Positions 1 through 54,055 of a stretch of 64,000 nt of DNA are shown piece by piece. Below the pieces are notes generated by a model. It saw only the letters and a list, made by a program, of their open reading frames with translations, searched no databases and was not told where the DNA came from. This stretch comes from an uncultured Bacteroidota bacterium (GTDB lineage: Bacteria; Bacteroidota; Bacteroidia; JABEUT01), in the NCBI GenBank assembly GCA_903916255.1, contig CAIWVW010000006.1, positions 24,026-88,025 of the forward strand, read 5' to 3'. Made by a program: the position numbers and the translations under genes. Position 1 is the first letter of the stretch. The number at the start of each line of letters is the position of its first letter.

Positions 1-181
1 GTTGTTCTTCGCTAACCTTATGCGGATTGGCATAATGTTTTTTAACTATGTTGTAATATAGACGCTTGATAGCGAGCAAATATACTTTATGTATTGGATA
101 GTAAACCAATAAAAGCGGCAGTGGAAATGCCATAACAGCTATGAAAAACACGGTGAATATGTTTTGTACAGATAATAACAT
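1..181 (-). CDS. Small membrane protein, partial (runs off left edge); paralogue of 50326..50601
   Basis: Not in ORF track; manual translation MLLSVQNIFTVFFIAVMAFPLPLLLVYYPIHKVYLLAIKRLYYNIVKKHYANPHKVSEEQ; A-rich leader; ungapped similarity to the 91-aa ORF at 50326. Confidence 0.75.
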   Translation of the reverse strand, partial: MLLSVQNIFTVFFIAVMAFPLPLLLVYYPIHKVYLLAIKRLYYNIVKKHYANPHKVSEEQ

Positions 182-204: not shown

Positions 205-330
205 CAAAGGAATACCAAGCGGGAGGCGGGCAGCATGACATTAGCCCTGATTGGGAAATGACTATCGGCAACAAAATGTATGATTTTACAGCATCCTGCA
301 AAAAAAGCGCATTTGCATGATTTACATCAT
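205..330 (-). promoter_or_regulatory. Variant -7 box (TTCCTTTG, 205..212) plus array of FNR/CRP-like half or full sites
   Basis: ATGAC/ATGAT half-sites at 235, 258, 280 and perfect ATGAT-TTAC-ATCAT at 317..330. Confidence 0.55.
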
Positions 331-385: not shown

Positions 386-730
386 TTAATTAATTTCAGG
401 AAAGTTGAACGTAACATTTTGGTCTTTAAACTTAAAAGCTACCACATAGTTATCTGAAACATTTTCGGCGCCTTCAAAAAACATGTGCAGCGGGGTGCGT
501 GCCGTTTTAAAATAGGTAGCTATTGTAATATAATTCTCTACACGCGATTTCGGAGCTTTTCCGTTAATGGTGCAATGTCCGTCGGCTATGGCGGTAATGG
601 CTTCGTTTATAAGCATAAGGTCAACACCTCTAACGGTGTTCCTCACTTTTTTGGGCAAGTCTTCAACAAATTCTTTTCTCGATTTGATAGTATGGGCGCT
701 GTTTTTAACAGTAGCAGGTATGGAATGCAT
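386..730 (-). CDS. Hypothetical protein (114 aa)
   Basis: ATG after A-rich leader; same strand as neighbours; no family recognised. Confidence 0.65.
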   Translation of the reverse strand: MHSIPATVKNSAHTIKSRKEFVEDLPKKVRNTVRGVDLMLINEAITAIADGHCTINGKAPKSRVENYITIATYFKTARTPLHMFFEGAENVSDNYVVAFKFKDQNVTFNFPEIN

Positions 731-824: not shown

Positions 825-1838
825 TTAAATGGTGGCGGGTTCGCTTAAGTCGTGAATAGTGCACTGGAAGCCCATCATCATATCTTCTGTGGAAAATATA
901 ACTACGTCTTGTTTTACTTTTTTGCGCAACCCTGTGCGGGTTACCAATTCGAATTCGGAGGTTTGTTCCTTTATTTTGTTCTTAAATTGAGTATAGTATC
1001 CGTTTTTAATAGATTCTACATAATCAGCGGCAACCAAAAAGGTAAAGTGTTTTCCAGTAATTTCTTCGGGCGTATAGCCTGTAAGTTTTGAAATGTTGGG
1101 TGTAGCAAAGGTTATTTTGCCGTAATAATCGCACGTATATATAAAACTGCCAACATTCTGGGCAATAGTCCTGTATCGTATTTCACTTTCACTCACTTGT
1201 TTTTCCGATTCTATCCTCTTTTTCATGTCTCCATTGAGCTTAAACAGAACGAAAAAAATAATAAGAAAAGCAATCAGTTCGCCTAGAATAATGGTAAAAT
1301 TGGTTTTACTATTATATAATTCGCCTTGTTGGGTAAACCCGGTGCGTTCCTCGCGCTCCCGTTTGTTGATATTGGCAACCAATGTTCGTATGGTGTCCAT
1401 CAGGGCAATACCGTCTTTGGATGAAACCATTTTCTGCGCACTGTCAAAAGAGAGTTTCCTTACTTTGGCAAGGGTATCTATAAAATGCAACTTTACATAG
1501 ATGTGGTTTGCAAGTATAGTAGCATCTTCCAGCAGGTCTGTGTCATCACCCAGGTCTTTCTGGAGGTTTTTTACAATTCGGTTAATCTTGGCAACTGAGC
1601 TGTCTGAAGGAACCAGATACTTTTCATTTCCGGTGATGATACAGTTCATCACACCTTCGTCGGCAGTGGATGTTATGGCATACATACGTTCTATACGTGC
1701 TATCTGGTGCTCTGAATTAAACGCTTGGTTAGCCAATAGTTCTGTGCGTTTGCTGTTGCTTATGGAATAGTATGTGGCAACGGAAACAATGGCGAGGGAC
1801 AGCAGAAAAACAATTACAATGTATTTATTTATTTTCAT
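825..1838 (-). CDS. Membrane sensor with CHASE3 and PAS domains, no kinase or output domain
   Basis: N-terminal TM; CHASE3-like segment (NCIITGNEKYLVP); second TM; PAS (YTCDYYGKITFATP..GYTPEEITGKHF) ending at the C-terminus. Confidence 0.85.
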   Translation of the reverse strand: MKINKYIVIVFLLSLAIVSVATYYSISNSKRTELLANQAFNSEHQIARIERMYAITSTADEGVMNCIITGNEKYLVPSDSSVAKINRIVKNLQKDLGDDTDLLEDATILANHIYVKLHFIDTLAKVRKLSFDSAQKMVSSKDGIALMDTIRTLVANINKREREERTGFTQQGELYNSKTNFTIILGELIAFLIIFFVLFKLNGDMKKRIESEKQVSESEIRYRTIAQNVGSFIYTCDYYGKITFATPNISKLTGYTPEEITGKHFTFLVAADYVESIKNGYYTQFKNKIKEQTSEFELVTRTGLRKKVKQDVVIFSTEDMMMGFQCTIHDLSEPATI

Positions 1839-2049: not shown

Positions 2050-2475
2050 ATGGATACGATAGAATTGGCATCTTCTTTGCGTTCGGCAGTTTCAAATCTT
2101 CATAAGGGATTGCGGAAGCGGAGCGATTCGGTGAAAGATTATTCCATGACCGAGATAGAAACCATTGCCCACTTGTCCCGTTCTTCTCAGTTACCTACTG
2201 AACTGGCCGCATTAACCCGTATTACAACGCAATCCATGTCGCAGATTTTGAAAAAACTGGAAGGGCAGGGAATTATTAAAAGGACGCCAGCGAAAGATGA
2301 CAAGCGCAAAGTATATATTTCGTTAACCGCCTCCGGAAGAAAATTGGTTGAGAAGACGAGATATGATAGAGACGAGTGGCTGAAAAACGCAATTGAAAAA
2401 GTACTTACCGATAAAGAAAGAGACTTGCTTGTAAAAGTTTTACCTCTTTTATGTAAATTAATAGAAATCAAATAA
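2050..2475 (+). CDS. MarR family transcriptional regulator
   Basis: 141 aa; wHTH (TELAALTRITTQSMSQILKKLEGQGII) and DKRKVYISLT motif. Confidence 0.93.
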   Translation: MDTIELASSLRSAVSNLHKGLRKRSDSVKDYSMTEIETIAHLSRSSQLPTELAALTRITTQSMSQILKKLEGQGIIKRTPAKDDKRKVYISLTASGRKLVEKTRYDRDEWLKNAIEKVLTDKERDLLVKVLPLLCKLIEIK

Positions 2476-2488
2476 TAAATCGAATTAA

Positions 2489-3052
2489 ATGGAACAAAAC
2501 ACAAACAACACAGCACTGTTAGTAATGGATATGCAAATGGGGATTGTTCCCATGCTGCCAACCCCCGGAGAAATTCTCGGCAATGTAAAGAAAGCCATAA
2601 TCACCGCCCGAGAGAGGAAAATTCCGGTTATTTATGTGGTGGTTGGTTTCAGGAAGGGAATGCCGGAAGTAAGCCTAAATAATAAAGGGTTTATGGCAAG
2701 TAAAGCAAGACTGGGCAGTGGAAATATGGAAGAATTTATGAAAATTCATACCGATATTGCTCCGTTGGATGGTGAAATTACGGTAAGCAAGCGCCGGGTA
2801 AGTGCCTTTACAGGCAGCGACCTTGATGTGGTTTTACGAGCACAGGGTATTCAACACATTGTTCTAACAGGCATCTCGACCAGCGGCGTTGTGTTATCCA
2901 CTACCCGTGAAGCTGCCGATAAAGACTACCGCATTACCATATTATCCGATTGCTGCGCCGATGGGGATGAAGAAGTACATCGTGTACTTATCACAAAAGT
3001 GTTCCCCCGCCAGGCCGATGTGCTTTCACTTGAAGATTGGAAGTCTAAATAA
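2489..3052 (+). CDS. Isochorismatase-like cysteine hydrolase
   Basis: ALLVMDMQ, KRRVSAF, LTGISTSGVVLST, AADKDY motifs. Confidence 0.92.
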   Translation: MEQNTNNTALLVMDMQMGIVPMLPTPGEILGNVKKAIITARERKIPVIYVVVGFRKGMPEVSLNNKGFMASKARLGSGNMEEFMKIHTDIAPLDGEITVSKRRVSAFTGSDLDVVLRAQGIQHIVLTGISTSGVVLSTTREAADKDYRITILSDCCADGDEEVHRVLITKVFPRQADVLSLEDWKSK

Positions 3053-3072
3053 TACCGGCTACTTAGGAGGAA

Positions 3073-4329
3073 ATGAAAATAGAGACATTCAGGGCATTCA
3101 AGAGCAGGAACTATCGCTTATATTTTACAGGACAATCCATATCACTCATCGGGACATGGATGCAGAAGACTGCTGTTCCCTGGGTAATTTATGTCCAGAC
3201 ACATTCCCTATTTATGCTCGGATTGTCGGCCTTTGCCACTCAATTTCCAAGTTTTCTTTTTTCACTTTTCGGTGGCGTCGTCTCCGACCGTTATAATAAA
3301 TACAAGGTTCTGCTTGCAACGCAAATACTATCACTCGTGCAGGCTTTATTACTTTCCATACTTGTTTTACTCGAACATTACACGGCTTGGGAAATAATGG
3401 CGGTAAGCGTAATATTGGGTATCATCAATGCGTTTGATGTTCCCGCAAGGCAGTCATTGGTATACAACATGGTGAGCAATAAGGATGATTTGCCGAATGC
3501 CATTGCACTCAACTCATCCATGGTGAACCTTGCCAAAATTGCAGGGCCGGCTTTTGCGGGCCTTGTGCTTGAAAAACTGGGCGCCGGCTTATGTTTTATG
3601 CTGAACGCAGTAAGTTTTCTTGCGGTGATAATTTCCTTGCTTTTCATGCGTTTTGATAAGCCTATAACTTCCGACAGGTCAAAAAAGCCAATCAAGGAAT
3701 TGAAAGAAGGATTTACCTATATAACCACTACTCCTGAAATAGGATTTATACTTTTATTTATAAGCATTATGAGCCTGCTGGTGCTTCCGTATGACGCGCT
3801 GCTGTCGGTTTATGCCAAAGATATTTTCAGTGGGAATGCCTCTACGCTTGGTTATTTGAACAGCTTTATTGGCGTAGGCGCAATAGGCGGAACTATTTTT
3901 TTAGCCTCTTTGAAAGATAAATCGAGTTTGAAAACTATTTTATTAATAGCCACATTTATATTTGGTGTCGGATTGATTTCATTTTCCCATATAGCCGATT
4001 TTAAATGGGCCTGTGTGTTTGCAGTAATGATGGGTTTCGGCATGATGGCGCTGGCAACTATAAGCAATACAATTCTTCAAACCACCTCTGTTCCTGAAAT
4101 GAGAGGCAGGGTAATAAGTTACTTTGCCATGGCTTTTTTCGGGATGCGCCCGCTCGGTTCTTTGCTTATCGGGTGGATTGCAAAATATACCGGAGCTCCT
4201 GATACCGTTTTAGCGGAAGGCATAGCCGCATTGCTTGTTGCAGGCGTATTTTCCTACTTTATGCGGAAGGATATTCTGAAGAAAAGGAACAGGGAGGCAA
4301 TCGATAATGCCGCTTTAGAAATAAGCTAA
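3073..4329 (+). CDS. MFS transporter
   Basis: About 12 hydrophobic segments; GGVVSDRYNK loop motif; AFDVPARQS; PEMRGRV. Confidence 0.92.
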   Translation: MKIETFRAFKSRNYRLYFTGQSISLIGTWMQKTAVPWVIYVQTHSLFMLGLSAFATQFPSFLFSLFGGVVSDRYNKYKVLLATQILSLVQALLLSILVLLEHYTAWEIMAVSVILGIINAFDVPARQSLVYNMVSNKDDLPNAIALNSSMVNLAKIAGPAFAGLVLEKLGAGLCFMLNAVSFLAVIISLLFMRFDKPITSDRSKKPIKELKEGFTYITTTPEIGFILLFISIMSLLVLPYDALLSVYAKDIFSGNASTLGYLNSFIGVGAIGGTIFLASLKDKSSLKTILLIATFIFGVGLISFSHIADFKWACVFAVMMGFGMMALATISNTILQTTSVPEMRGRVISYFAMAFFGMRPLGSLLIGWIAKYTGAPDTVLAEGIAALLVAGVFSYFMRKDILKKRNREAIDNAALEIS

Positions 4330-4350: not shown

Positions 4351-7300
4351 CTAAATCACTCCCTGACTGTGCATTTTCTGCAGCCGGTCATTATATTCCT
4401 TATATAAATCCTTTTGGTTTCCTGACTGGGCAAGGTATGTAAGGTTTTCCATAACCTGCAGGTTCATATTCATTTCACCTTCGTAATTCTTTTGGTTTTC
4501 CGGCGCAAGTGTTTTTAAATAGGTAACCCATGAGGCGGCCGCATCAAACATTTTCTTTGAAAGTTTGTTTGCTTTGTCGTAGGCCTGCACATCATAATAC
4601 CCTTGCACAATCATAGTTTCGTAGTAATCATACGGGCTGCTCTTTTCCGAAATGGAATCGGTAACCATATTAAGCACTTTAAGCGCCGAATCCTTTTTGT
4701 TTTCACGAATTAACTGAGTTGCCAGTAAGCCCGCTTCAAGCCTTAGGTCGGTGGCCATGCGGCGAATATTATCGTCGCAATAAACGCCCGAACCCATATT
4801 TCCCCAGCGGAATTTATGCATTACATTGTCATACATAACATCAGATGCAATGCGGCGGCCTTCAATGCTGTTGGTGTTTGTATTTACAACAGGCGTAAGT
4901 TCATACACCAATCCATTCGTTTGAAAATACTTTTCAAGACCTAAATAGTTTTCTTCCGGAAGGGTGGTAGCAAAGCAGATGGGGCGTTTCCAATCGTTAT
5001 GGGCAATAGCATCTAGCACCATAATTTTGTTGCGTTCGAGCAATGTACCGCCTACTTTAAAATCCAATTCATTCACAATGCTGTCAGTCATATTAGCAGG
5101 AACCAAACCGCTTTTCAGCACTTGTTGTTTATCCACTTTCAGCGAGAAGAACGGAGTGGGGAAGTAGTTATGCGTTTTTCCATCACCCAACTGTATTTTA
5201 TCGGCTTCATTATCGCTTTTTATAAAGTCGATAACGTTTTTCAAATCGTAAAACTGACCCGCTTTGTATTTTGGGTTGTAATTGGTGGCGATGTATAAAT
5301 AATCGCGGGTGCCTTCCCTGTATTCATCATGTGTAAGCGAAAATGGCATCCTGTCCGATTCATACGCTTTGCGGTTCATTTGGTCAGCATACCATGCCAT
5401 ACCAAGCAGTTCCAAATTACAAACGCGCACATCTGTGCGAATTCCTTCCACTTCCTGTGCATACCAAAGGGGGAATGTATCGCAATCGCCATCAGTAAAC
5501 AAGATTGCATTCGGCGGGCACGATTGTAAATAATCGATTGCCAAATCACGGCAAGTGTATCTTCCGCTGCGGTCGTGGTCGTCCCATTCGGCTCGGCACA
5601 TCACTACCGGCACAATTACAGCAAGCACAGTAGAAAGAATAGCCATGCCTATTCCTGCCTGCCTGTTTTTAGTTGCTTTAGCCAGTAATTCATATAAGCC
5701 AAGCACACCCAACCCTATCCATATTGCAAAAGCATAAAACGAACCGACATAGGAATAGTCACGTTCACGCGGCTGGTAGGGCGGCTGATTGAGATATAAA
5801 ATAATGGCAAGCCCGGTAAAAAAGAAAAGTGTACCCACTACGAGCCAGTTTCGGCGGTCTTTCATAAACTGGAAACCCATGCCAATTAAGCCAAGTATCA
5901 GCGGCAAGCCGTACATGGCATTATGCGCTTTATTATTGGCAAGTTCATCGGGCATACCGTCTTGCGGAGCGCGCATATTATCCAATGCCGGAATGCCGGT
6001 AATCCAGTTGCCATGCAGATTATCGTCGGGGTTGAGGCCGGGAATATCATTTTGTCTTCCGCAGAAATCCCACATAAAATAACGCAGGAACATAAATCCT
6101 ACCTGATAATGGAAAAAGAAGTGAACATTATCGCCAAAAGTAGGGCAATCGACATAGGCAGGTTGGCCGTCTTCTCCAATGCTTTTTACTTTCACCATAT
6201 CTGTTCCGCCCCATTTTTTATAGCCTTCCGGGCGATGCTGAGAAGGGTCAAACATACGGGGAAATATGGTGCACATAGCAGGGTCGTACTTAGGGACTTC
6301 TGTTTTTGTAATCTCTACATATTTTCCTTTCTTTTCGTCTTTGGCATAAACAGCGCTTCCAACATCTGAACTGATTGGCGAAGCTGTGTAATATGGCCCG
6401 TAAAGCTGCGGCCATGAACCATATTGTTTACGGTCTAAGTAATCATTCAAGCTCATCGGGTCGCTTGGGCAATCTTCATTCAGTGGAGTAAAAGCATTTG
6501 CACGAACCACCAGCATTACAAAAGAACAATAGCCGATTATGAGGGTTGCAGAGCATAAAATAGCTGTGTTTAAACCGGGTTTATTATGTTTTTTAGAGTA
6601 GTTAAGCCCCCAAACAATCAATGCGGTTATAAAAGCTCCATAAATAAAAACACCTGAATTAAATGGTAATCCAACGGTATTTACAAAGAATAATTCGAAC
6701 CAGCTGGCAAAACCTACTACGCCAGGAATAACAATGGCTTTAACCCCGCCAAGTATCATAACTCCGACTATAAAACCTGCAATACCTACCTGTGTGCTTT
6801 TGCTTTTTGAAAATTTCGAAAGTATAATATTGGGCCATTTCGAGCGCAATCCGTCGGGATAATTCTTCAGGAAGTAAAGCAATACCGCAGCAGGAATAAA
6901 CAGTAAGCAAAGGAAGTGAACACCGATGGCAAGCCCTATAAGCATGGCAAGCAAAATGAGCCAGCGCTCGCTGTGGTCGGTGGCGCGGGCATATTTGGTG
7001 GAGACCCAGAACATGAGCGACGTAAAGCAAATAGACATGGCCCAAACAGATGCTTCTGTTGCGGAAAACCAAATAGAATCGGCAAAAATGAACGAGGTGG
7101 CTCCAATGAATCCGGCGCCAAGGATAGCATAAATCCGACCTTCTGTTAACTCACCTGAACGGGTATATAATTTCTTTGCAAAAAAGGTGGTTATCCAAAA
7201 TAAGAACATGATAGCCATTGCGCTGAATGTGGCGCAGGCGCGGTTTAATATGGGTGCCACTTTATGCACATCGCCAAAACTGAGCAACGAAATGCAATGT

Positions 7301-7503
7301 TGCAATAACTGCAAGAAAGGCTCCCCGGGCGGGTGGCCTATTTCAAGTTTGTAATAAATGGAAAGGTTTTCGCTGCAATCCCAAAAGCTGGCTGTAGGTT
7401 CCACAGTGCTCCAGTAAACAAAGCAAGCTATAAGGAATACGCACCATCCGACAATATTATTGAGTTTGGTGAATTTGGTTTCTAAAGGTGAGCCGTTAGT
7501 CAT
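4351..7503 (-). CDS. DUF2723 / TMEM260-like GT-C membrane protein
   Basis: SFWDCSE..HPPGEP, FADSIWFSATEA, PRERDYSY, FTDGDCDTFPLWYAQEVEGIRTDVRV motifs; 1050 aa. Confidence 0.9.
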   Translation of the reverse strand: MTNGSPLETKFTKLNNIVGWCVFLIACFVYWSTVEPTASFWDCSENLSIYYKLEIGHPPGEPFLQLLQHCISLLSFGDVHKVAPILNRACATFSAMAIMFLFWITTFFAKKLYTRSGELTEGRIYAILGAGFIGATSFIFADSIWFSATEASVWAMSICFTSLMFWVSTKYARATDHSERWLILLAMLIGLAIGVHFLCLLFIPAAVLLYFLKNYPDGLRSKWPNIILSKFSKSKSTQVGIAGFIVGVMILGGVKAIVIPGVVGFASWFELFFVNTVGLPFNSGVFIYGAFITALIVWGLNYSKKHNKPGLNTAILCSATLIIGYCSFVMLVVRANAFTPLNEDCPSDPMSLNDYLDRKQYGSWPQLYGPYYTASPISSDVGSAVYAKDEKKGKYVEITKTEVPKYDPAMCTIFPRMFDPSQHRPEGYKKWGGTDMVKVKSIGEDGQPAYVDCPTFGDNVHFFFHYQVGFMFLRYFMWDFCGRQNDIPGLNPDDNLHGNWITGIPALDNMRAPQDGMPDELANNKAHNAMYGLPLILGLIGMGFQFMKDRRNWLVVGTLFFFTGLAIILYLNQPPYQPRERDYSYVGSFYAFAIWIGLGVLGLYELLAKATKNRQAGIGMAILSTVLAVIVPVVMCRAEWDDHDRSGRYTCRDLAIDYLQSCPPNAILFTDGDCDTFPLWYAQEVEGIRTDVRVCNLELLGMAWYADQMNRKAYESDRMPFSLTHDEYREGTRDYLYIATNYNPKYKAGQFYDLKNVIDFIKSDNEADKIQLGDGKTHNYFPTPFFSLKVDKQQVLKSGLVPANMTDSIVNELDFKVGGTLLERNKIMVLDAIAHNDWKRPICFATTLPEENYLGLEKYFQTNGLVYELTPVVNTNTNSIEGRRIASDVMYDNVMHKFRWGNMGSGVYCDDNIRRMATDLRLEAGLLATQLIRENKKDSALKVLNMVTDSISEKSSPYDYYETMIVQGYYDVQAYDKANKLSKKMFDAAASWVTYLKTLAPENQKNYEGEMNMNLQVMENLTYLAQSGNQKDLYKEYNDRLQKMHSQGVI

Positions 7504-50217: not shown

Positions 50218-50305
50218 CTGATTAATATCAGCGGTGAAAATGATAAATCTCACTTGTGTCCGGGTGTCAAATCATGATTTTTATTTAACCAGTACTGTTC
50301 TTTTG
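50218..50305 (+). promoter_or_regulatory. FNR/CRP-like site array and variant -7 box
   Basis: CTGAT-TAAT-ATCAG (50218), ATGAT-AAAT-CTCAC (50240), GGGTG-TCAA-ATCAT (50262) at a 22-bp period; TTCTTTTG at 50298..50305. Confidence 0.6.
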
Positions 50306-50325: not shown

Positions 50326-50601
50326 ATGCCAATTACTTTAAGTATCCAGTCTTTTCTTTCGTTTGCATTTGTTGCATTAATTTTTCTACCCTTGCCGATA
50401 TTGATAGTAACTAACCTGTTAGGATATTTGTCTGATTGGTTTATGTTTAACAGTTACCACAAGATAATAGAAAAAAAATACGCGCATCTGCAGTCGATTG
50501 AAGTGGAGCACCTGAAAGAAATTTTTCCGCATAAAAATGAAAAGCATTTGGAAAGCATGGCTGATTATATTAATGGAAAAAGAAATTCGAACGGAAATTA
50601 A
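50326..50601 (+). CDS. Small membrane protein (91 aa), paralogue of 1..181
   Basis: N-terminal TM with PLP motif; A-rich leader; similarity to the ORF at the window start. Confidence 0.8.
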   Translation: MPITLSIQSFLSFAFVALIFLPLPILIVTNLLGYLSDWFMFNSYHKIIEKKYAHLQSIEVEHLKEIFPHKNEKHLESMADYINGKRNSNGN

Positions 50602-50722: not shown

Positions 50723-50766
50723 CTGACGTATATCAGTAAATTTTAAAATAAGTGCAATTACATTTG
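50723..50766 (+). promoter_or_regulatory. Class II-type promoter: FNR-like box plus consensus -7 box
   Basis: CTGAC-GTAT-ATCAG (50723..50736) and TACATTTG (50759..50766); no ORF follows. Confidence 0.7.
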
Positions 50767-50936: not shown

Positions 50937-51989
50937 TTACGAGAATTTGCGGATGCGTTCTAACCCAAACGGATTGAGAACTTTAATTTCCCTTCCGTCT
51001 GTTTCAATCAGCCATTCCCGTTTAAAATCAGACAAGGTGCGTATGAGTGATTCGGTAGATGAGCCTGCAATGCTGGCTAATTCTTCCCGTGAAATCCGAA
51101 TATTATCGTTAGGTGAATTTTTGCGGTGCAATTGTAAAAGCACATCGGCTACGCGTGAACGAACAGAATTATACGCAAGGCTTAGCAGCCTTTCTTCGCG
51201 TTCCGATATATTATTGGCAAGCAATTTTACAAACCGGGTAGATACTTCATGGTTGGAATATATTAGCGACAGGAAATCGTCCTTCGGAATAAGCGCCACT
51301 TCCGCTTCATCGAAAGCACTTGCAGAATCGGTAAACGATGCGCCTTCCAACAAAGCTACATATCCAAAGAAATCTCCGGGGCCATATATTTCGGTAATAA
51401 ATTCTTTCCCTTCCTGATTTACTTTCCAGGTTTTCACTTTTCCTTTTATTACGAAATAAACGGATGTCGGTTTTTCACCTGCTTTATATAAGTCTTCTTT
51501 TCCCCGGAATGATTCGATATGATAATCGGCAGCAACGGATAACGGCAGGCTGAATTTTTTCGCCTCATCTATAAATTCTGCTAAGCCGCTCAAATCGCGG
51601 GAGTAATTCTTCCGGAAAAACTCGGCCCGGCGCAAACGTGTGCGTATGGCATTTAGCAAATCCGCTTCCCTGACGGGTTTGGTAAGATAATCGTCTGCGC
51701 CCAGGTTCATACCCTTGCGCAAGTCGGTTTTTTCGGCTTTGGCCGAAAGAAATATAAATGGGATACCTGCCGTTGATGGGTTTTGCGACACATGCTGAAG
51801 CACACCGTAACCATCAAGACCGGGCATCATAATGTCGCAGATAATAAGGTCGGGCCTTTCGCTCAGGGCCAGTTCTACGCCTTTGTTTCCATTGTCGGCA
51901 GTTACTACCGTATAATTGGCAAGGTCGATAACTTCCGAAATATTCTCGCGCATTTCTGCGTCGTCTTCTATAAGTAGGATTTTTTTCAT
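50937..51989 (-). CDS. Response regulator fused to Crp/Fnr-family domains (REC-cNMP-HTH)
   Basis: LLIEDD..LIICDIMMPGLDG; cNMP-binding fold (GDFFG); ISREELASIAGSSTESLIRTLSDF HTH. Confidence 0.93.
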   Translation of the reverse strand: MKKILLIEDDAEMRENISEVIDLANYTVVTADNGNKGVELALSERPDLIICDIMMPGLDGYGVLQHVSQNPSTAGIPFIFLSAKAEKTDLRKGMNLGADDYLTKPVREADLLNAIRTRLRRAEFFRKNYSRDLSGLAEFIDEAKKFSLPLSVAADYHIESFRGKEDLYKAGEKPTSVYFVIKGKVKTWKVNQEGKEFITEIYGPGDFFGYVALLEGASFTDSASAFDEAEVALIPKDDFLSLIYSNHEVSTRFVKLLANNISEREERLLSLAYNSVRSRVADVLLQLHRKNSPNDNIRISREELASIAGSSTESLIRTLSDFKREWLIETDGREIKVLNPFGLERIRKFS

Positions 51990-52003
51990 AACTATATATC
52001 GGT

Positions 52004-53767
52004 TTAGTTCAATGTGTTAGTAGTGGGTATATTAATGGTAAACGTAGTGCCTACACCCTCTGTGCTCTTAAAATTAATGCTGCCTTTCATCAGGTCGGTA
52101 TATCGTTTTACAATATTAAGACCTAATCCCGTACCTCTGACATTAATAGCATTTTTTGCCCTGAAAAAATTTTCGAACAGATGAGATTGGTCAGTTTCTG
52201 GAATACCCATTCCATGGTCGGTTACATCTATTTCCAGTTCTTTATCATTCAGCTTGGTTGTAAACTCGATTTCCGAACTCTCGGGCGAGTATTTACTTGC
52301 ATTCGAAAGCAGATTTACTATTACATTCTTCATCATTTGGTTGTCCAGAAATACGCCCGTATTATTGCCGATATGCTTATAGGTTATTTTTTGCCCGGTT
52401 TTCAATGTCGAGTTTAATTCATCTATCAAATCTTCTGAAAATAAAACAATATTAAACAGTGTGGGTTTCACTTCTATTTTGCCTTGTTCCAGCTTCTCCA
52501 GCGAAATAAAGCTGTTTAATATATCTACCAAATGGTCCACCGATGATTTTATACGCAGTAAATGCTTGTTGCTTTTATCGCGTATTACATCCACTTCATT
52601 GCTGTTGCGTATGTATTTTTCTATCAGTTCGGTAGAGGATATAATGGTTCCCAGCGGTGTTCTGAATTCATGCGAGGCGATAGAAACAATAAGCGATGTA
52701 AGTTCATTTAAGTGCTTTTCTTTTTCCAGCGATGTCCGTACATCCTGCTCGGCCCTTTTCTGTGCGGTAATATTTTGTTCTACCAGCAAAATTTCGTCAA
52801 TCTCTGTATTTCCGCTGTTCCATAAAGCAACAGCGCTGGCTGTATATAACAGCCCGCGATAGGTAAATTCAAAAGTAGAGTTGATACTTTTCCTTTCGAA
52901 GACCTTCATAAGCTCCCTGGCTATTTCACCTCTCTTTTCCGGCGGAAAACGGGTTAAGTAATCGGTACCCATTAAATCTTCGGGTGCAATCTCGAATTTT
53001 GAAAGTTCTTTTCCGTTGGCAAAAACATATTTTAAGTCGCGGTTAAGAACATTGATGGTACCATCGGGAAAGTTAGTGGCTATCATTTCATACCGCCGCT
53101 GACTGTCGTGTAGCTTTTGTTCGGCCAAGTTTCTTTTTCGGCGGTCGTTCAAATGCAATATGTAGGTAAGAATAAGTAAAAGCACACAAACCACAATACC
53201 CGCAAAATAGAATTTACCGGTTGCACCTGCATTATGCACCATGTCGTCTTCTTTCTCTTCCAGCAATGCTTTGGTCGATTTTTGAAGGCGGTCTATCATG
53301 GCATTTATCGAATCGGAAACATTCTTCTCTGTATCGGATGCTATGATACGCTGGGCGGCCTCGAAACCGTTTTTGCTGCTGCGTAAAATGATACCCGTGT
53401 TCAGTAGTTCGATGCGCATGGATATTAACGAATCGATATGCGTGAACGATTTGCGTTGCTGCAGGGTCGGATTGCCTATTGTCAGCAGTTCGCCCGCTAT
53501 TTTGGTTAACTTGTTGCGGTCGCTTATATAAGGGTCGAGGTACATGTTCTTACTCGTAATTATATACCCCTTTTCGGCATTTTCGGCATCCTTTAGGGTA
53601 GATTGGATGGTTCCCAACGTTTCGATAAGCAGGTGCGTATTTGTTACATCTTTGTCGGATGCTATGTAGGTGGAAGTACTCCGGAATGACTCGAAGCCAA
53701 TAAACCCAAGAATGGCAATAGCTGCAACGTATCCAATCAGGATTAATCTGTCGTAAATACTTTTCAT
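52004..53767 (-). CDS. CHASE3-PAS sensor histidine kinase
   Basis: DAENAEKGYIIT..YLDPY (CHASE3); PAS-like segment; ASHEFRTPLG; NLLSNASKYS; GTGLGL. Confidence 0.93.
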   Translation of the reverse strand: MKSIYDRLILIGYVAAIAILGFIGFESFRSTSTYIASDKDVTNTHLLIETLGTIQSTLKDAENAEKGYIITSKNMYLDPYISDRNKLTKIAGELLTIGNPTLQQRKSFTHIDSLISMRIELLNTGIILRSSKNGFEAAQRIIASDTEKNVSDSINAMIDRLQKSTKALLEEKEDDMVHNAGATGKFYFAGIVVCVLLLILTYILHLNDRRKRNLAEQKLHDSQRRYEMIATNFPDGTINVLNRDLKYVFANGKELSKFEIAPEDLMGTDYLTRFPPEKRGEIARELMKVFERKSINSTFEFTYRGLLYTASAVALWNSGNTEIDEILLVEQNITAQKRAEQDVRTSLEKEKHLNELTSLIVSIASHEFRTPLGTIISSTELIEKYIRNSNEVDVIRDKSNKHLLRIKSSVDHLVDILNSFISLEKLEQGKIEVKPTLFNIVLFSEDLIDELNSTLKTGQKITYKHIGNNTGVFLDNQMMKNVIVNLLSNASKYSPESSEIEFTTKLNDKELEIDVTDHGMGIPETDQSHLFENFFRAKNAINVRGTGLGLNIVKRYTDLMKGSINFKSTEGVGTTFTINIPTTNTLN

Positions 53768-54041
53768 TCTTTTTTAATTACTCAACAGGGTTTAATGGTC
53801 AGTTATAATCCTATGCAACATTACGGAAAAAAAGTAATATTAGTAACTTAATACGCGAATAATCGTAAAGGTTACCGATATTATCGTTAAATTTTAATGG
53901 CTGCCATGATTTGTGTCATTGCAAGCCGTGGGGCAAATCAAGTGGAATATGTTTTATTTGTTGATTATCAGTGCGTAAGTTTATTGTGTACATCCGGAAG
54001 GAACAACAGTATAAATGAATGCTTGGTAAAAATAAGCGGAA

Positions 54042-54055
54042 ATGATTAAAATCAG
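54042..54055. promoter_or_regulatory. FNR-like palindrome
   Basis: ATGAT-TAAA-ATCAG in the kinase / DUF6089 intergenic region; second site ATGAT-TTGT-GTCAT at 53906..53919. Confidence 0.55.

What the first reader, a model, noticed from the sequence alone, without database searches (positions are those of the whole stretch)
1..181. Unannotated small membrane protein with a paralogue 50 kb away; both sit beside CHASE3-PAS sensors
Seen: the ORF 181->1 aligns without gaps to the 91-aa ORF at 50326 (LSVQ/LSIQ, PLP, Y..I..K.YA; 16 of 59 identical by hand count). Both have a variant -7 box (TTCCTTTG, TTCTTTTG), similar short leaders containing AAATTAAA, and FNR-like site arrays. Each lies within a few kb of a CHASE3-PAS sensor gene. 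Inference: a small-protein family that acts as output or modulator of CHASE3/Crp-Fnr signalling.
Basis: partly seen in the sequence, partly recalled or inferred. Interest (0 to 1): 0.62.

Follow-up and report, generated by a model that had tools for sequence, protein, structure and literature searches.

The report
Small membrane proteins behind phased Crp/Fnr boxes
The ORF at the window's left edge is a real 82-aa membrane-protein gene, one of four paralogues of an undescribed family found only in some uncultured Bacteroidota MAGs, whose promoters carry three evenly spaced Crp/Fnr-type sites and one branch of which stays next to a sensor kinase and receiver-Crp regulator, so the family is most likely a switch-like output of that pathway.

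Summary
Extended leftwards, ORF 181->1 is an 82-aa gene. It aligns without gaps to the 91-aa ORF at 50326 over 76 residues (E 2e-11; no shuffle of 5000 comes close). The genome holds four paralogues, not two. The family has no Pfam, NCBIfam, PHROG or PDB relative and is very narrow: 24 clusters among 1.84 billion representatives, 6 of 18 genomes of one genus, and 0 of about 390 other genomes of the class. It is under purifying selection. The predicted protein is single-pass, N-out/C-in, with a helical cytoplasmic domain of about 50 aa.

Family promoters share three Crp/Fnr-type boxes 22 bp apart, with the proximal one 29.5 bp before a TTnnTTTGC -7 box (about -41.5). The only triple arrays in this 3.7-Mb genome precede family genes.

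The sensor link holds for one clade only. B-clade genes sit beside a kinase (CHASE3-PAS in this genus) and a REC-cNMP-Crp regulator in 9 of 10 contexts, in both convergent and divergent layouts. Copy A, the finding itself, is a fast-evolving, shortened copy with degenerate boxes. Among the genomes compared, only this one has a CHASE3-PAS gene next to it.

The family is most likely a transcriptional output of this Crp-type signalling. A role as modulator of the kinase is untested.

The parts
1..181 (-). First 60 codons of copy A. The full gene is 82 aa (G000:C6:24206..23961) and ends 68 nt left of the window. Membrane segment about residues 3-31 with the invariant PLP kink; cytoplasmic tail with KKH..NP..VSEEQL..IFP.KK.
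205..212 (-). -7-type promoter box TTCCTTTG of copy A (family consensus TTnnTTTGC), 23 nt before the ATG.
236..292 (-). Degenerate three-box array of copy A in the family frame: cores 236-247 GGGCTAATGTCA, 259-270 TGCCGATAGTCA, 281-292 GCTGTAAAATCA. Only the right half-sites are kept. The proximal centre is 29.5 nt before the -7 box.
318..329 (-). Perfect palindromic box TGATGTAAATCA, out of phase with the array.
386..730 (-). 114-aa ORF of unknown function directly upstream of copy A. A homologue occupies the same position before the family gene in G016.
825..1838 (-). 337-aa CHASE3-TM-PAS protein without a kinase domain. It neighbours copy A in this genome only.
50219..50274 (+). Three-box array of copy B: TGATTAATATCA (50219-50230), TGATAAATCTCA (50241-50252), GGTGTCAAATCA (50263-50274). 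Centres are exactly 22 nt apart.
50298..50305 (+). -7-type box TTCTTTTG of copy B. The proximal box centre lies 29.5 nt upstream of it.
50326..50601 (+). Copy B, 91 aa, a member of the clade that is linked to the kinase/regulator pair.
50937..51989 (-). Response regulator REC-cNMP_binding-HTH_Crp (350 aa), convergent with copy B. It is the candidate activator of the boxes.
52004..53767 (-). CHASE3-PAS-HisKA-HATPase histidine kinase (587 aa), in an operon with the regulator.
53907..54054 (.). Two further boxes (53907-53918 TGATTTGTGTCA, 54043-54054 TGATTAAAATCA) in the spacer between the kinase operon and a DUF6089 gene. They may reflect autoregulation.

Best explanation
ORF 181->1 is the larger part of a genuine 82-aa gene. 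It encodes a single-pass membrane protein with a short N-terminus outside, one helix kinked at an invariant Pro-Leu-Pro, and a helical, basic C-terminal domain of about 50 aa in the cytoplasm. It belongs to an undescribed family restricted to some uncultured Bacteroidota MAGs, with four paralogues in this genome. Family genes appear to be stand-alone transcription units (a terminator-like hairpin was seen after copy D only). They are driven by activator-dependent promoters: three Crp/Fnr-type boxes (about cTGAt-N4-ATCAt) spaced 22 bp apart, so that they lie on one face of the helix, with the proximal one about 41.5 bp before the inferred start. There is no conserved -33 element, and the -7 box is imperfect (TTnnTTTGC). 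The most likely activator is the receiver-cNMP-Crp response regulator phosphorylated by the neighbouring CHASE3-PAS kinase, possibly together with its two paralogues, which share the same recognition helix. One clade of the family (copy B) has stayed next to that pair through rearrangements. The family is thus a cooperative, switch-like transcriptional output of this phosphorelay. Copy A is a diverged, C-terminally shortened copy with weakened boxes, and its CHASE3-PAS neighbour is incidental. Shown: homology, selection, promoter architecture and gene linkage. Inferred: topology, transcription start, the identity of the activator, and everything about what the protein does in the membrane.
For: The gene is real. 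The pair aligns without gaps. There are four paralogues and 17 copies in six genomes. dN/dS is 0.05-0.35, or dS is saturated while the protein remains alignable. P20, L21, P22 and L61 are invariant in all 27 aligned members, and F13 and P66 in at least 90%.

Topology and fold. On average there are 0.4 K/R before the hydrophobic segment and 5.3 after it. The AF2 model has pLDDT 89.

Promoter. Boxes start at -108/-86/-64 and TTTG at about -25 in about 20 of 27 distinct members, including distant ones. The footprint alignment shows conserved boxes with unconserved spacers although dS is saturated. The only two triple arrays in G000 precede copies D and B. An exact 15-base pattern gives 13 hits in 18 genus genomes against 0 in controls, and 9 of them are upstream of family genes. 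The array travels with the small gene: non-carrier genomes have neither boxes nor the ORF upstream of the deacetylase/ACIII operon, and copy D is followed by a hairpin and T-run.

Link to the regulator. The B clade has 98/99 support. In 9 of 10 contexts it is adjacent to the kinase and REC-cNMP-Crp regulator: convergent in this genus, divergent in L046 and L049, where the boxes lie in the shared spacer. A regulator orthologue of at least 89% identity is found only in genomes that carry the family.
Against: The genome also encodes a classical Cys-cluster FNR-like regulator, and three receiver-Crp paralogues share an identical recognition helix. Sequence therefore cannot say which protein binds the boxes. 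In other genomes of the class, similar arrays precede ccoS-like and fnr-like genes. The co-occurrence of regulator and family could reflect a single sub-clade. The PWM was built from the family's own sites, so their high scores are partly circular; the exact-pattern search is less so. Copy A itself has only weak boxes.
Confidence: 0.6

Rival explanations
1. The proteins are feedback modulators or connectors of the sensor kinases. They would be induced by the regulator, insert into the membrane and bind the kinase (its transmembrane or PAS/DHp region) to damp or amplify signalling, as MgrB does for PhoQ or SafA for PhoQ. This is compatible with the best explanation and adds a protein-level mechanism to it.
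For: The proteins are small and single-pass with a conserved cytoplasmic domain. The B clade stays beside the kinase/regulator pair through rearrangement. The genes carry the strongest sites of the presumed regulon. The analogy to MgrB and SafA rests on general knowledge, not on a test.
Against: There is no interaction evidence and no homology to any known modulator. Three of the four paralogues are not near any kinase. In G017 the B-clade copy is separated from its kinase.
Confidence: 0.25
2. The boxes belong to the classical oxygen-sensing FNR-like regulator, and the family is part of a low-oxygen respiration regulon. The proteins would act on respiratory complexes as assembly or accessory subunits, as CcoS, CcoQ or CydX do, and not on the two-component system.
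For: G000 encodes a Cys-cluster FNR-like protein. Box-plus-(-7) promoters also precede genes whose N-termini look like CoxII, SdhB/FrdB, GAPDH and DoxX (identified by eye, not verified) and a cytochrome c gene. The D-type copy always lies just upstream of the ACIII-like operon. In other genomes of the class, arrays precede CcoS-like small membrane proteins and fnr-like genes. The carriers are uncultured MAGs whose isolate names (Umea, KR3) suggest lake metagenomes.
Against: The B clade is linked to the receiver-Crp pair, not to the FNR-like gene. In L046 and L049 the array lies in the spacer shared with the kinase/regulator operon. D is a separate unit with its own terminator. There is no homology to CcoS, and the genus lacks PF03597 altogether.
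Confidence: 0.3
3. The nearness to sensors is only inherited synteny or chance, and the family has no functional tie to them.
For: This is true for copy A: its CHASE3-PAS neighbour is absent from the orthologous positions in G016 and G015. Most family clades have unrelated neighbours. The convergent layout within one genus counts as one event.
Against: G000 has only 5 CHASE3 genes and 4 Crp-type regulators in 3.7 Mb. The B-clade linkage recurs in a different (divergent) layout and in different surroundings in two distant lineages whose regulators are only 59-64% identical.
Confidence: 0.12
4. The ORFs are not translated. The conserved element would be DNA or RNA only.
For: No proteomic or ribosome-profiling data are available.
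Against: Protein-level conservation persists with saturated synonymous change, dN/dS is low, residues are invariant, ORFs are intact in all 17 genomic copies, and the fold is predicted with confidence.
Confidence: 0.02

Closest known systems
MgrB / SafA (B1500) / MzrA: small membrane proteins induced by a two-component system that act back on a sensor kinase (general knowledge)
   Same: A small single-pass membrane protein whose gene probably lies under the system's own regulator and, for one clade, beside the kinase/regulator genes.
   Different: There is no sequence or fold similarity. The predicted orientation puts the conserved domain in the cytoplasm. There are four paralogues per genome with triple activator sites. 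No interaction has been shown.
FNR / FixK class II promoters (TTGAT-N4-ATCAA centred near -41.5), and FixLJ-FixK control of microaerobic respiration (general knowledge)
   Same: A palindromic TGAT-N4-ATCA box is centred about 41.5 bp before the inferred start, with no -35-type element. Other candidate targets are respiratory genes.
   Different: The boxes come as three sites phased at 22 bp, with half-site ATGAT rather than TTGAT, in front of a Bacteroidota-type -7 box. The candidate activator fuses a phospho-receiver to the cNMP/Crp module instead of using an Fe-S cluster or a separate FixJ step.
CcoS/FixS (PF03597), CcoQ, CydX: small membrane proteins of oxidase operons
   Same: A small N-terminal-anchor membrane protein behind FNR-type boxes. 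In other genomes of the class, similar arrays precede CcoS-like genes.
   Different: The family is not homologous (no Pfam hit) and is longer, with a structured cytoplasmic domain of about 50 aa. The genes are stand-alone rather than inside oxidase operons. The genus has no PF03597.

Membership tests
Any curated protein family (Pfam-A, NCBIfam, PHROGs, PADLOC, PDB sequences and folds) | A significant profile or fold match | tested here: not met
   No Pfam hit at E<=0.01. The only NCBIfam hit is a chance one at 13 bits against a cut-off of 590. No PHROG hit. PADLOC gave one hit, E 0.0019, for one paralogue only. Best PDB sequence match E 0.0076, an unrelated nucleolar protein. Best Foldseek PDB match E 7.
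Two-component-linked small membrane feedback proteins (MgrB/SafA kind) | A small single-pass inner-membrane protein | tested here: met
   82-96 aa, one hydrophobic segment (KD19 of 1.8-2.8), a strong positive-inside bias and a confident helical model. This is prediction only.
Two-component-linked small membrane feedback proteins (MgrB/SafA kind) | The gene is controlled by the system's response regulator | tested here: inconclusive
   Conserved phased Crp-type boxes and linkage of the B clade to the receiver-Crp regulator. However, four Crp-family proteins could bind the boxes, and there are no expression data.
Two-component-linked small membrane feedback proteins (MgrB/SafA kind) | Binds the sensor kinase and changes its activity | not testable with these tools
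   This needs two-hybrid or pull-down assays, or a multimer structure prediction. Only single-chain prediction was available.
Class II Crp/Fnr-dependent promoter | A palindromic box centred near -41.5 that replaces the -35 element | tested here: inconclusive
   The proximal box centre lies 29.5 nt before the first base of the -7 box in both A and B, and there is no conserved -33 element. The transcription start is inferred, not mapped.
Class II Crp/Fnr-dependent promoter | Transcription depends on the activator | not testable with these tools
   This needs reporter or in-vitro transcription assays.
CcoS/FixS (PF03597) | A match to the FixS profile, including the W..K.GQ[FY]DD motif | tested here: not met
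   No Pfam hit for any paralogue. PF03597 is absent from all 18 genus genomes. The motif is absent from the family alignment.
Type I toxin, holin or mobile-element small hydrophobic protein | A phage or mobile-element context, or a partner antisense or antitoxin gene | tested here: not met
   The chromosomal positions are syntenic across genomes, with housekeeping neighbours. No PHROG hit. Antisense RNAs were not searched for.

The most novel reading that the evidence does not exclude
The family is the dedicated membrane arm of an uncharacterised receiver-Crp phosphorelay in uncultured Bacteroidota MAGs. On this reading, three phased activator sites give each paralogue a cooperative, switch-like response, and the proteins then act through their cytoplasmic domain on the sensor kinases (feedback, or cross-talk between the three paralogous systems) or on the respiratory chain. 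That would be a new class of small-protein regulator with no relative among known ones.
Probability: 0.25. Interest if true: 0.65.

Novelty: new variant of a known kind. Interest (0 to 1): 0.5.

Why it matters
Small membrane proteins are routinely missed or left as 'hypothetical', yet several of the best-studied ones tune sensor kinases or respiratory complexes. This is a clean, testable case. The family is under selection and has a confident predicted fold. Its promoter design is unusually regular, with three phased Crp/Fnr sites. It is also genetically tied to a receiver-Crp fusion regulator for which two full-text literature searches found no study. If the link holds, these promoters give ready-made reporters for that pathway. 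They would also give a first handle on what a CHASE3-PAS/receiver-Crp system controls in uncultured Bacteroidota. The reach is limited, because the family is confined to a narrow uncultured lineage and no function has been shown.

Tried and rejected
- The search for related loci with family alignments failed three times for lack of a conserved stretch. A single-protein scan only returned two MAG records of the same genus.
- Terminator and promoter consensus scans around A, B and D were uninformative. The D terminator was seen by eye.
- PDB sequence search and Foldseek gave nothing.
- Two literature searches found no paper on receiver-Crp regulators of Bacteroidota or on this family.
- CcoS presence or absence could not discriminate between readings, because the whole genus lacks it.
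- A recent duplication of sensor plus small gene as the origin of the A and B loci: rejected. The sensors are 24% identical and A and B are 29% identical, and the layouts differ, co-directional at A and convergent at B.
- The array as the promoter of the ACIII operon, with the small ORF as a leader: rejected.
- The earlier scan note on the boxes was treated as a lead only. I re-derived the boxes independently.

Full report
**1. The observation**

The window is G000:C6:24026-88025. ORF 181->2 on the minus strand runs off the left edge. On the contig it is an 82-aa ORF, MLLSVQ...AEILQD.

- The newly recovered C-terminus also matches (EEQLYAIFPYKK against VEHLKEIFPHKN). The full alignment is 22/76 without gaps, E 2e-11.
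- The Smith-Waterman score is 109. The maximum was 65 in 5000 global shuffles and 61 in 5000 shuffles that keep the hydrophobic and polar parts separate (z = 11.8). Each part is significant on its own.

**2. A family, not a pair**

- tblastn of the genome finds two more paralogues, on C107 (51% identical to A) and C101 (44%).
- A profile search of 5.8 billion clustered proteins returns 29 clusters, all unnamed or 'hypothetical protein'.
- An exhaustive HMM search of 1.84 billion representatives returns only 24.
- In species-representative genomes the family occurs in 6 of the 18 genomes of the window's genus, which is also the whole GTDB family and order. Those genomes carry up to four copies each. 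It occurs in none of about 390 genomes of 202 other genera of the class.
- Record titles call the carriers 'MAG: uncultured Bacteroidetes bacterium', isolates Umea_bin-09912 and KR3_bin-0479.
- There is no Pfam, NCBIfam, PHROG or meaningful PADLOC hit.

**3. It is a protein**

- Between orthologues dS is mostly saturated while the proteins stay 35-88% identical. Where dS can be estimated, dN/dS is 0.05-0.35.
- P20, L21, P22 and L61 are invariant over 27 diverse members, and F13 and P66 are nearly so.
- The region before the hydrophobic segment has on average 0.4 K/R, and the 15 residues after it have 5.3 K/R against 1.1 D/E. By the positive-inside rule the N-terminus is outside and the C-terminal domain of about 50 residues is in the cytoplasm.
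- AlphaFold2 with 24 sequences gives pLDDT 89 and pTM 0.62. The model has helix 2-18, a kink at PLP, a long helix 20-47 running from the membrane into the cytoplasm, then helices 58-64 and 70-81.
- Neither Foldseek against the PDB nor a profile search of PDB sequences finds a relative.

**4. Promoters**

The upstream DNA of almost all members has the same design. Boxes of the type TGAT-N4-ATCA (consensus cTGAtaaAAATCAT) start at about -108, -86 and -64 from the ATG, and a TTTG element lies at about -25.

- A MAFFT alignment of 20 upstream regions shows three conserved boxes separated by unconserved spacers, no conserved -33 element, and a conserved TTnnTTTGC followed by an A-rich leader. Because dS is saturated between these genomes, this is a real footprint.
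- In copy B the cores are at 50219-50230, 50241-50252 and 50263-50274, with centres exactly 22 nt apart.
- In both A and B the proximal centre is 29.5 nt before the first base of the -7 box. If that box starts near -12, the site is centred near -41.5. This is the class II position known for FNR and CRP (general knowledge). The start itself is not mapped.
- A PWM scan of all 3.74 Mb, chaining sites 21-23 nt apart, finds only two triple arrays, upstream of copies D and B, and one of the best pairs upstream of C. At threshold 8 a reversed-sequence control gives 1 pair against 26.
- A search that does not use the PWM is less circular. An exact 15-base pattern for the triple array gives 13 hits in the 18 genus genomes against 0 in controls, and 9 of the 13 lie directly upstream of family genes.
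- Across 401 genomes of the class the pattern occurs about 62 times against 4 in controls. Where I could read the context, it precedes CcoS/FixS-like small membrane proteins and Cys-cluster FNR-like genes. The box type is therefore that of a respiration or oxygen-type Crp/Fnr regulon.
- In G000, single boxes at the fixed 39-nt offset from TTTG number 82 against 25 in the control, and 27 against 1 when an ORF start must follow. They precede genes whose N-termini look like CoxII, SdhB/FrdB, GAPDH and DoxX. I identified those products by eye and did not verify them.

**5. The link to sensors**

G000 has only five CHASE3 genes and four Crp-type HTH proteins, so nearness is not expected by chance. 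Synteny and a tree separate the family into clades.

*B clade (98/99 support).* It contains copy B and relatives. It is adjacent to a 569-588-aa histidine kinase plus a 350-aa REC-cNMP_binding-HTH_Crp regulator in 9 of the 10 contexts that can be judged.
- The layout is convergent in G000, G010, G016, G015, L047, L048 and L051.
- It is divergent, with the boxes in the shared spacer, in L046 and L049. These come from distant organisms (regulators 59-64% identical, kinases about 46%) and have quite different surroundings.
- The tenth copy (G017) lies 8 kb from a paralogous receiver-Crp gene.
- A close orthologue of this regulator (at least 89% identity) exists only in genomes that carry the family. 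That could reflect one sub-clade.

*Other clades.* They are not beside any such system.
- D-type copies always precede a polysaccharide deacetylase and an ACIII-like operon. Non-carrier genomes have neither boxes nor a small ORF there, and D is followed by a hairpin and T-run. The array therefore belongs to the small gene, and D is monocistronic.
- C-type copies lie near rsmI.

*Copy A, the actual finding.*
- It sits on a long branch with P0033, which lies beside an RsmI-type methylase.
- It lacks the C-terminal ..SYKDN tail that most members have.
- It has only weak boxes, with PWM scores of 3-7 against 10-17 in B and D.
- At the orthologous position in G016 and G015 there is no CHASE3-PAS gene.
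- The 337-aa CHASE3-PAS protein has no kinase domain and is only 24% identical to the kinase.
- The co-directional layout at A differs from the convergent layout at B.

**6. Which regulator?**

The three receiver-Crp paralogues of G000 have an identical recognition helix, S[T/P]ESLIRTLSDFK. A fourth, classical FNR-like protein with an N-terminal Cys cluster has RETVIR. All could read TGA-type half-sites, so sequence cannot assign the boxes.

The argument for the receiver-Crp regulator is co-localisation: the B-clade linkage and the shared spacers in L046 and L049. The argument for FNR is the respiratory flavour of the other targets. I rank 'output of the receiver-Crp phosphorelay' first (0.6 for the package: real gene, Crp/Fnr-activated promoter, this regulator). 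The FNR/respiration reading (0.3) and the kinase-feedback reading (0.25) are live alternatives or additions.

**7. Comparison with known systems**

- In function, the nearest are the small membrane proteins induced by two-component systems that act back on kinases (MgrB, SafA, MzrA), and the small oxidase-associated proteins under FNR/FixK control (CcoS, CcoQ, CydX). The family is homologous to none of them.
- The promoter resembles class II FNR/FixK promoters, but with three sites phased at 22 bp before a Bacteroidota -7 box.
I re-derived it independently, and I add that the triple arrays are a signature of this protein family.

**8. Limits**

All carriers are uncultured MAGs. Independent linkage events number two or three, not ten.

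**9. Verdict**

The finding is real and more interesting than a chance pair of hydrophobic ORFs, but its reach is narrow and its function is unproven. I rate the novelty as a new variant of a known kind, and the interest as 0.5.

Noticed in passing
window 4351-7503 (-) and G000:C6:20553-23777 (-): Two paralogous TMEM260-like (DUF2723) putative protein O-mannosyltransferases of 1050 and 1074 aa flank the copy-A locus. The same pair flanks the family gene in G016, and one of them lies beside the family gene in G015.
   Followed up: partly
window 2050-4329 (+); L040 1998-4321: A MarR / isochorismatase-like / MFS_3 trio next to copy A recurs next to a distant family member (P0044) on an unrelated metagenomic contig.
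   Followed up: no
window 386-730 (-): A 114-aa ORF with no family hit lies directly upstream of copy A, and a homologue lies directly upstream of the family gene in G016. It may be a conserved partner.
   Followed up: partly
L033 8550-9433 (G017:C7): In G017 a RES-domain toxin and Xre/MbcA-type antitoxin pair occupies the place next to the B-clade copy where other genomes have the regulator and kinase.
   Followed up: no
window 50724-50735; 53907-53918; 54043-54054: There are further perfect or near-perfect boxes: one in the convergent spacer between copy B and the regulator gene, and two upstream of the kinase operon and DUF6089 gene. These may reflect autoregulation.
   Followed up: no
G000:C53:11983-29421: A second receiver-Crp regulator with a PAS kinase lies beside an aa3-type cytochrome oxidase operon. 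Box pairs precede the CoxII-like gene and a cytochrome c gene. A classical Cys-cluster FNR-like gene is in the same region.
   Followed up: partly
L084, L090, L091 (other genomes of the class): Phased box arrays precede CcoS/FixS-like genes of 54-58 aa and, divergently, FNR-like regulator genes. The window's genus has no PF03597 at all.
   Followed up: partly
G012:C208:2029-2084 (L063): The one non-family triple array with canonical geometry (TTTG 27 nt after the last box) precedes a 462-469-aa secreted protein.
   Followed up: no
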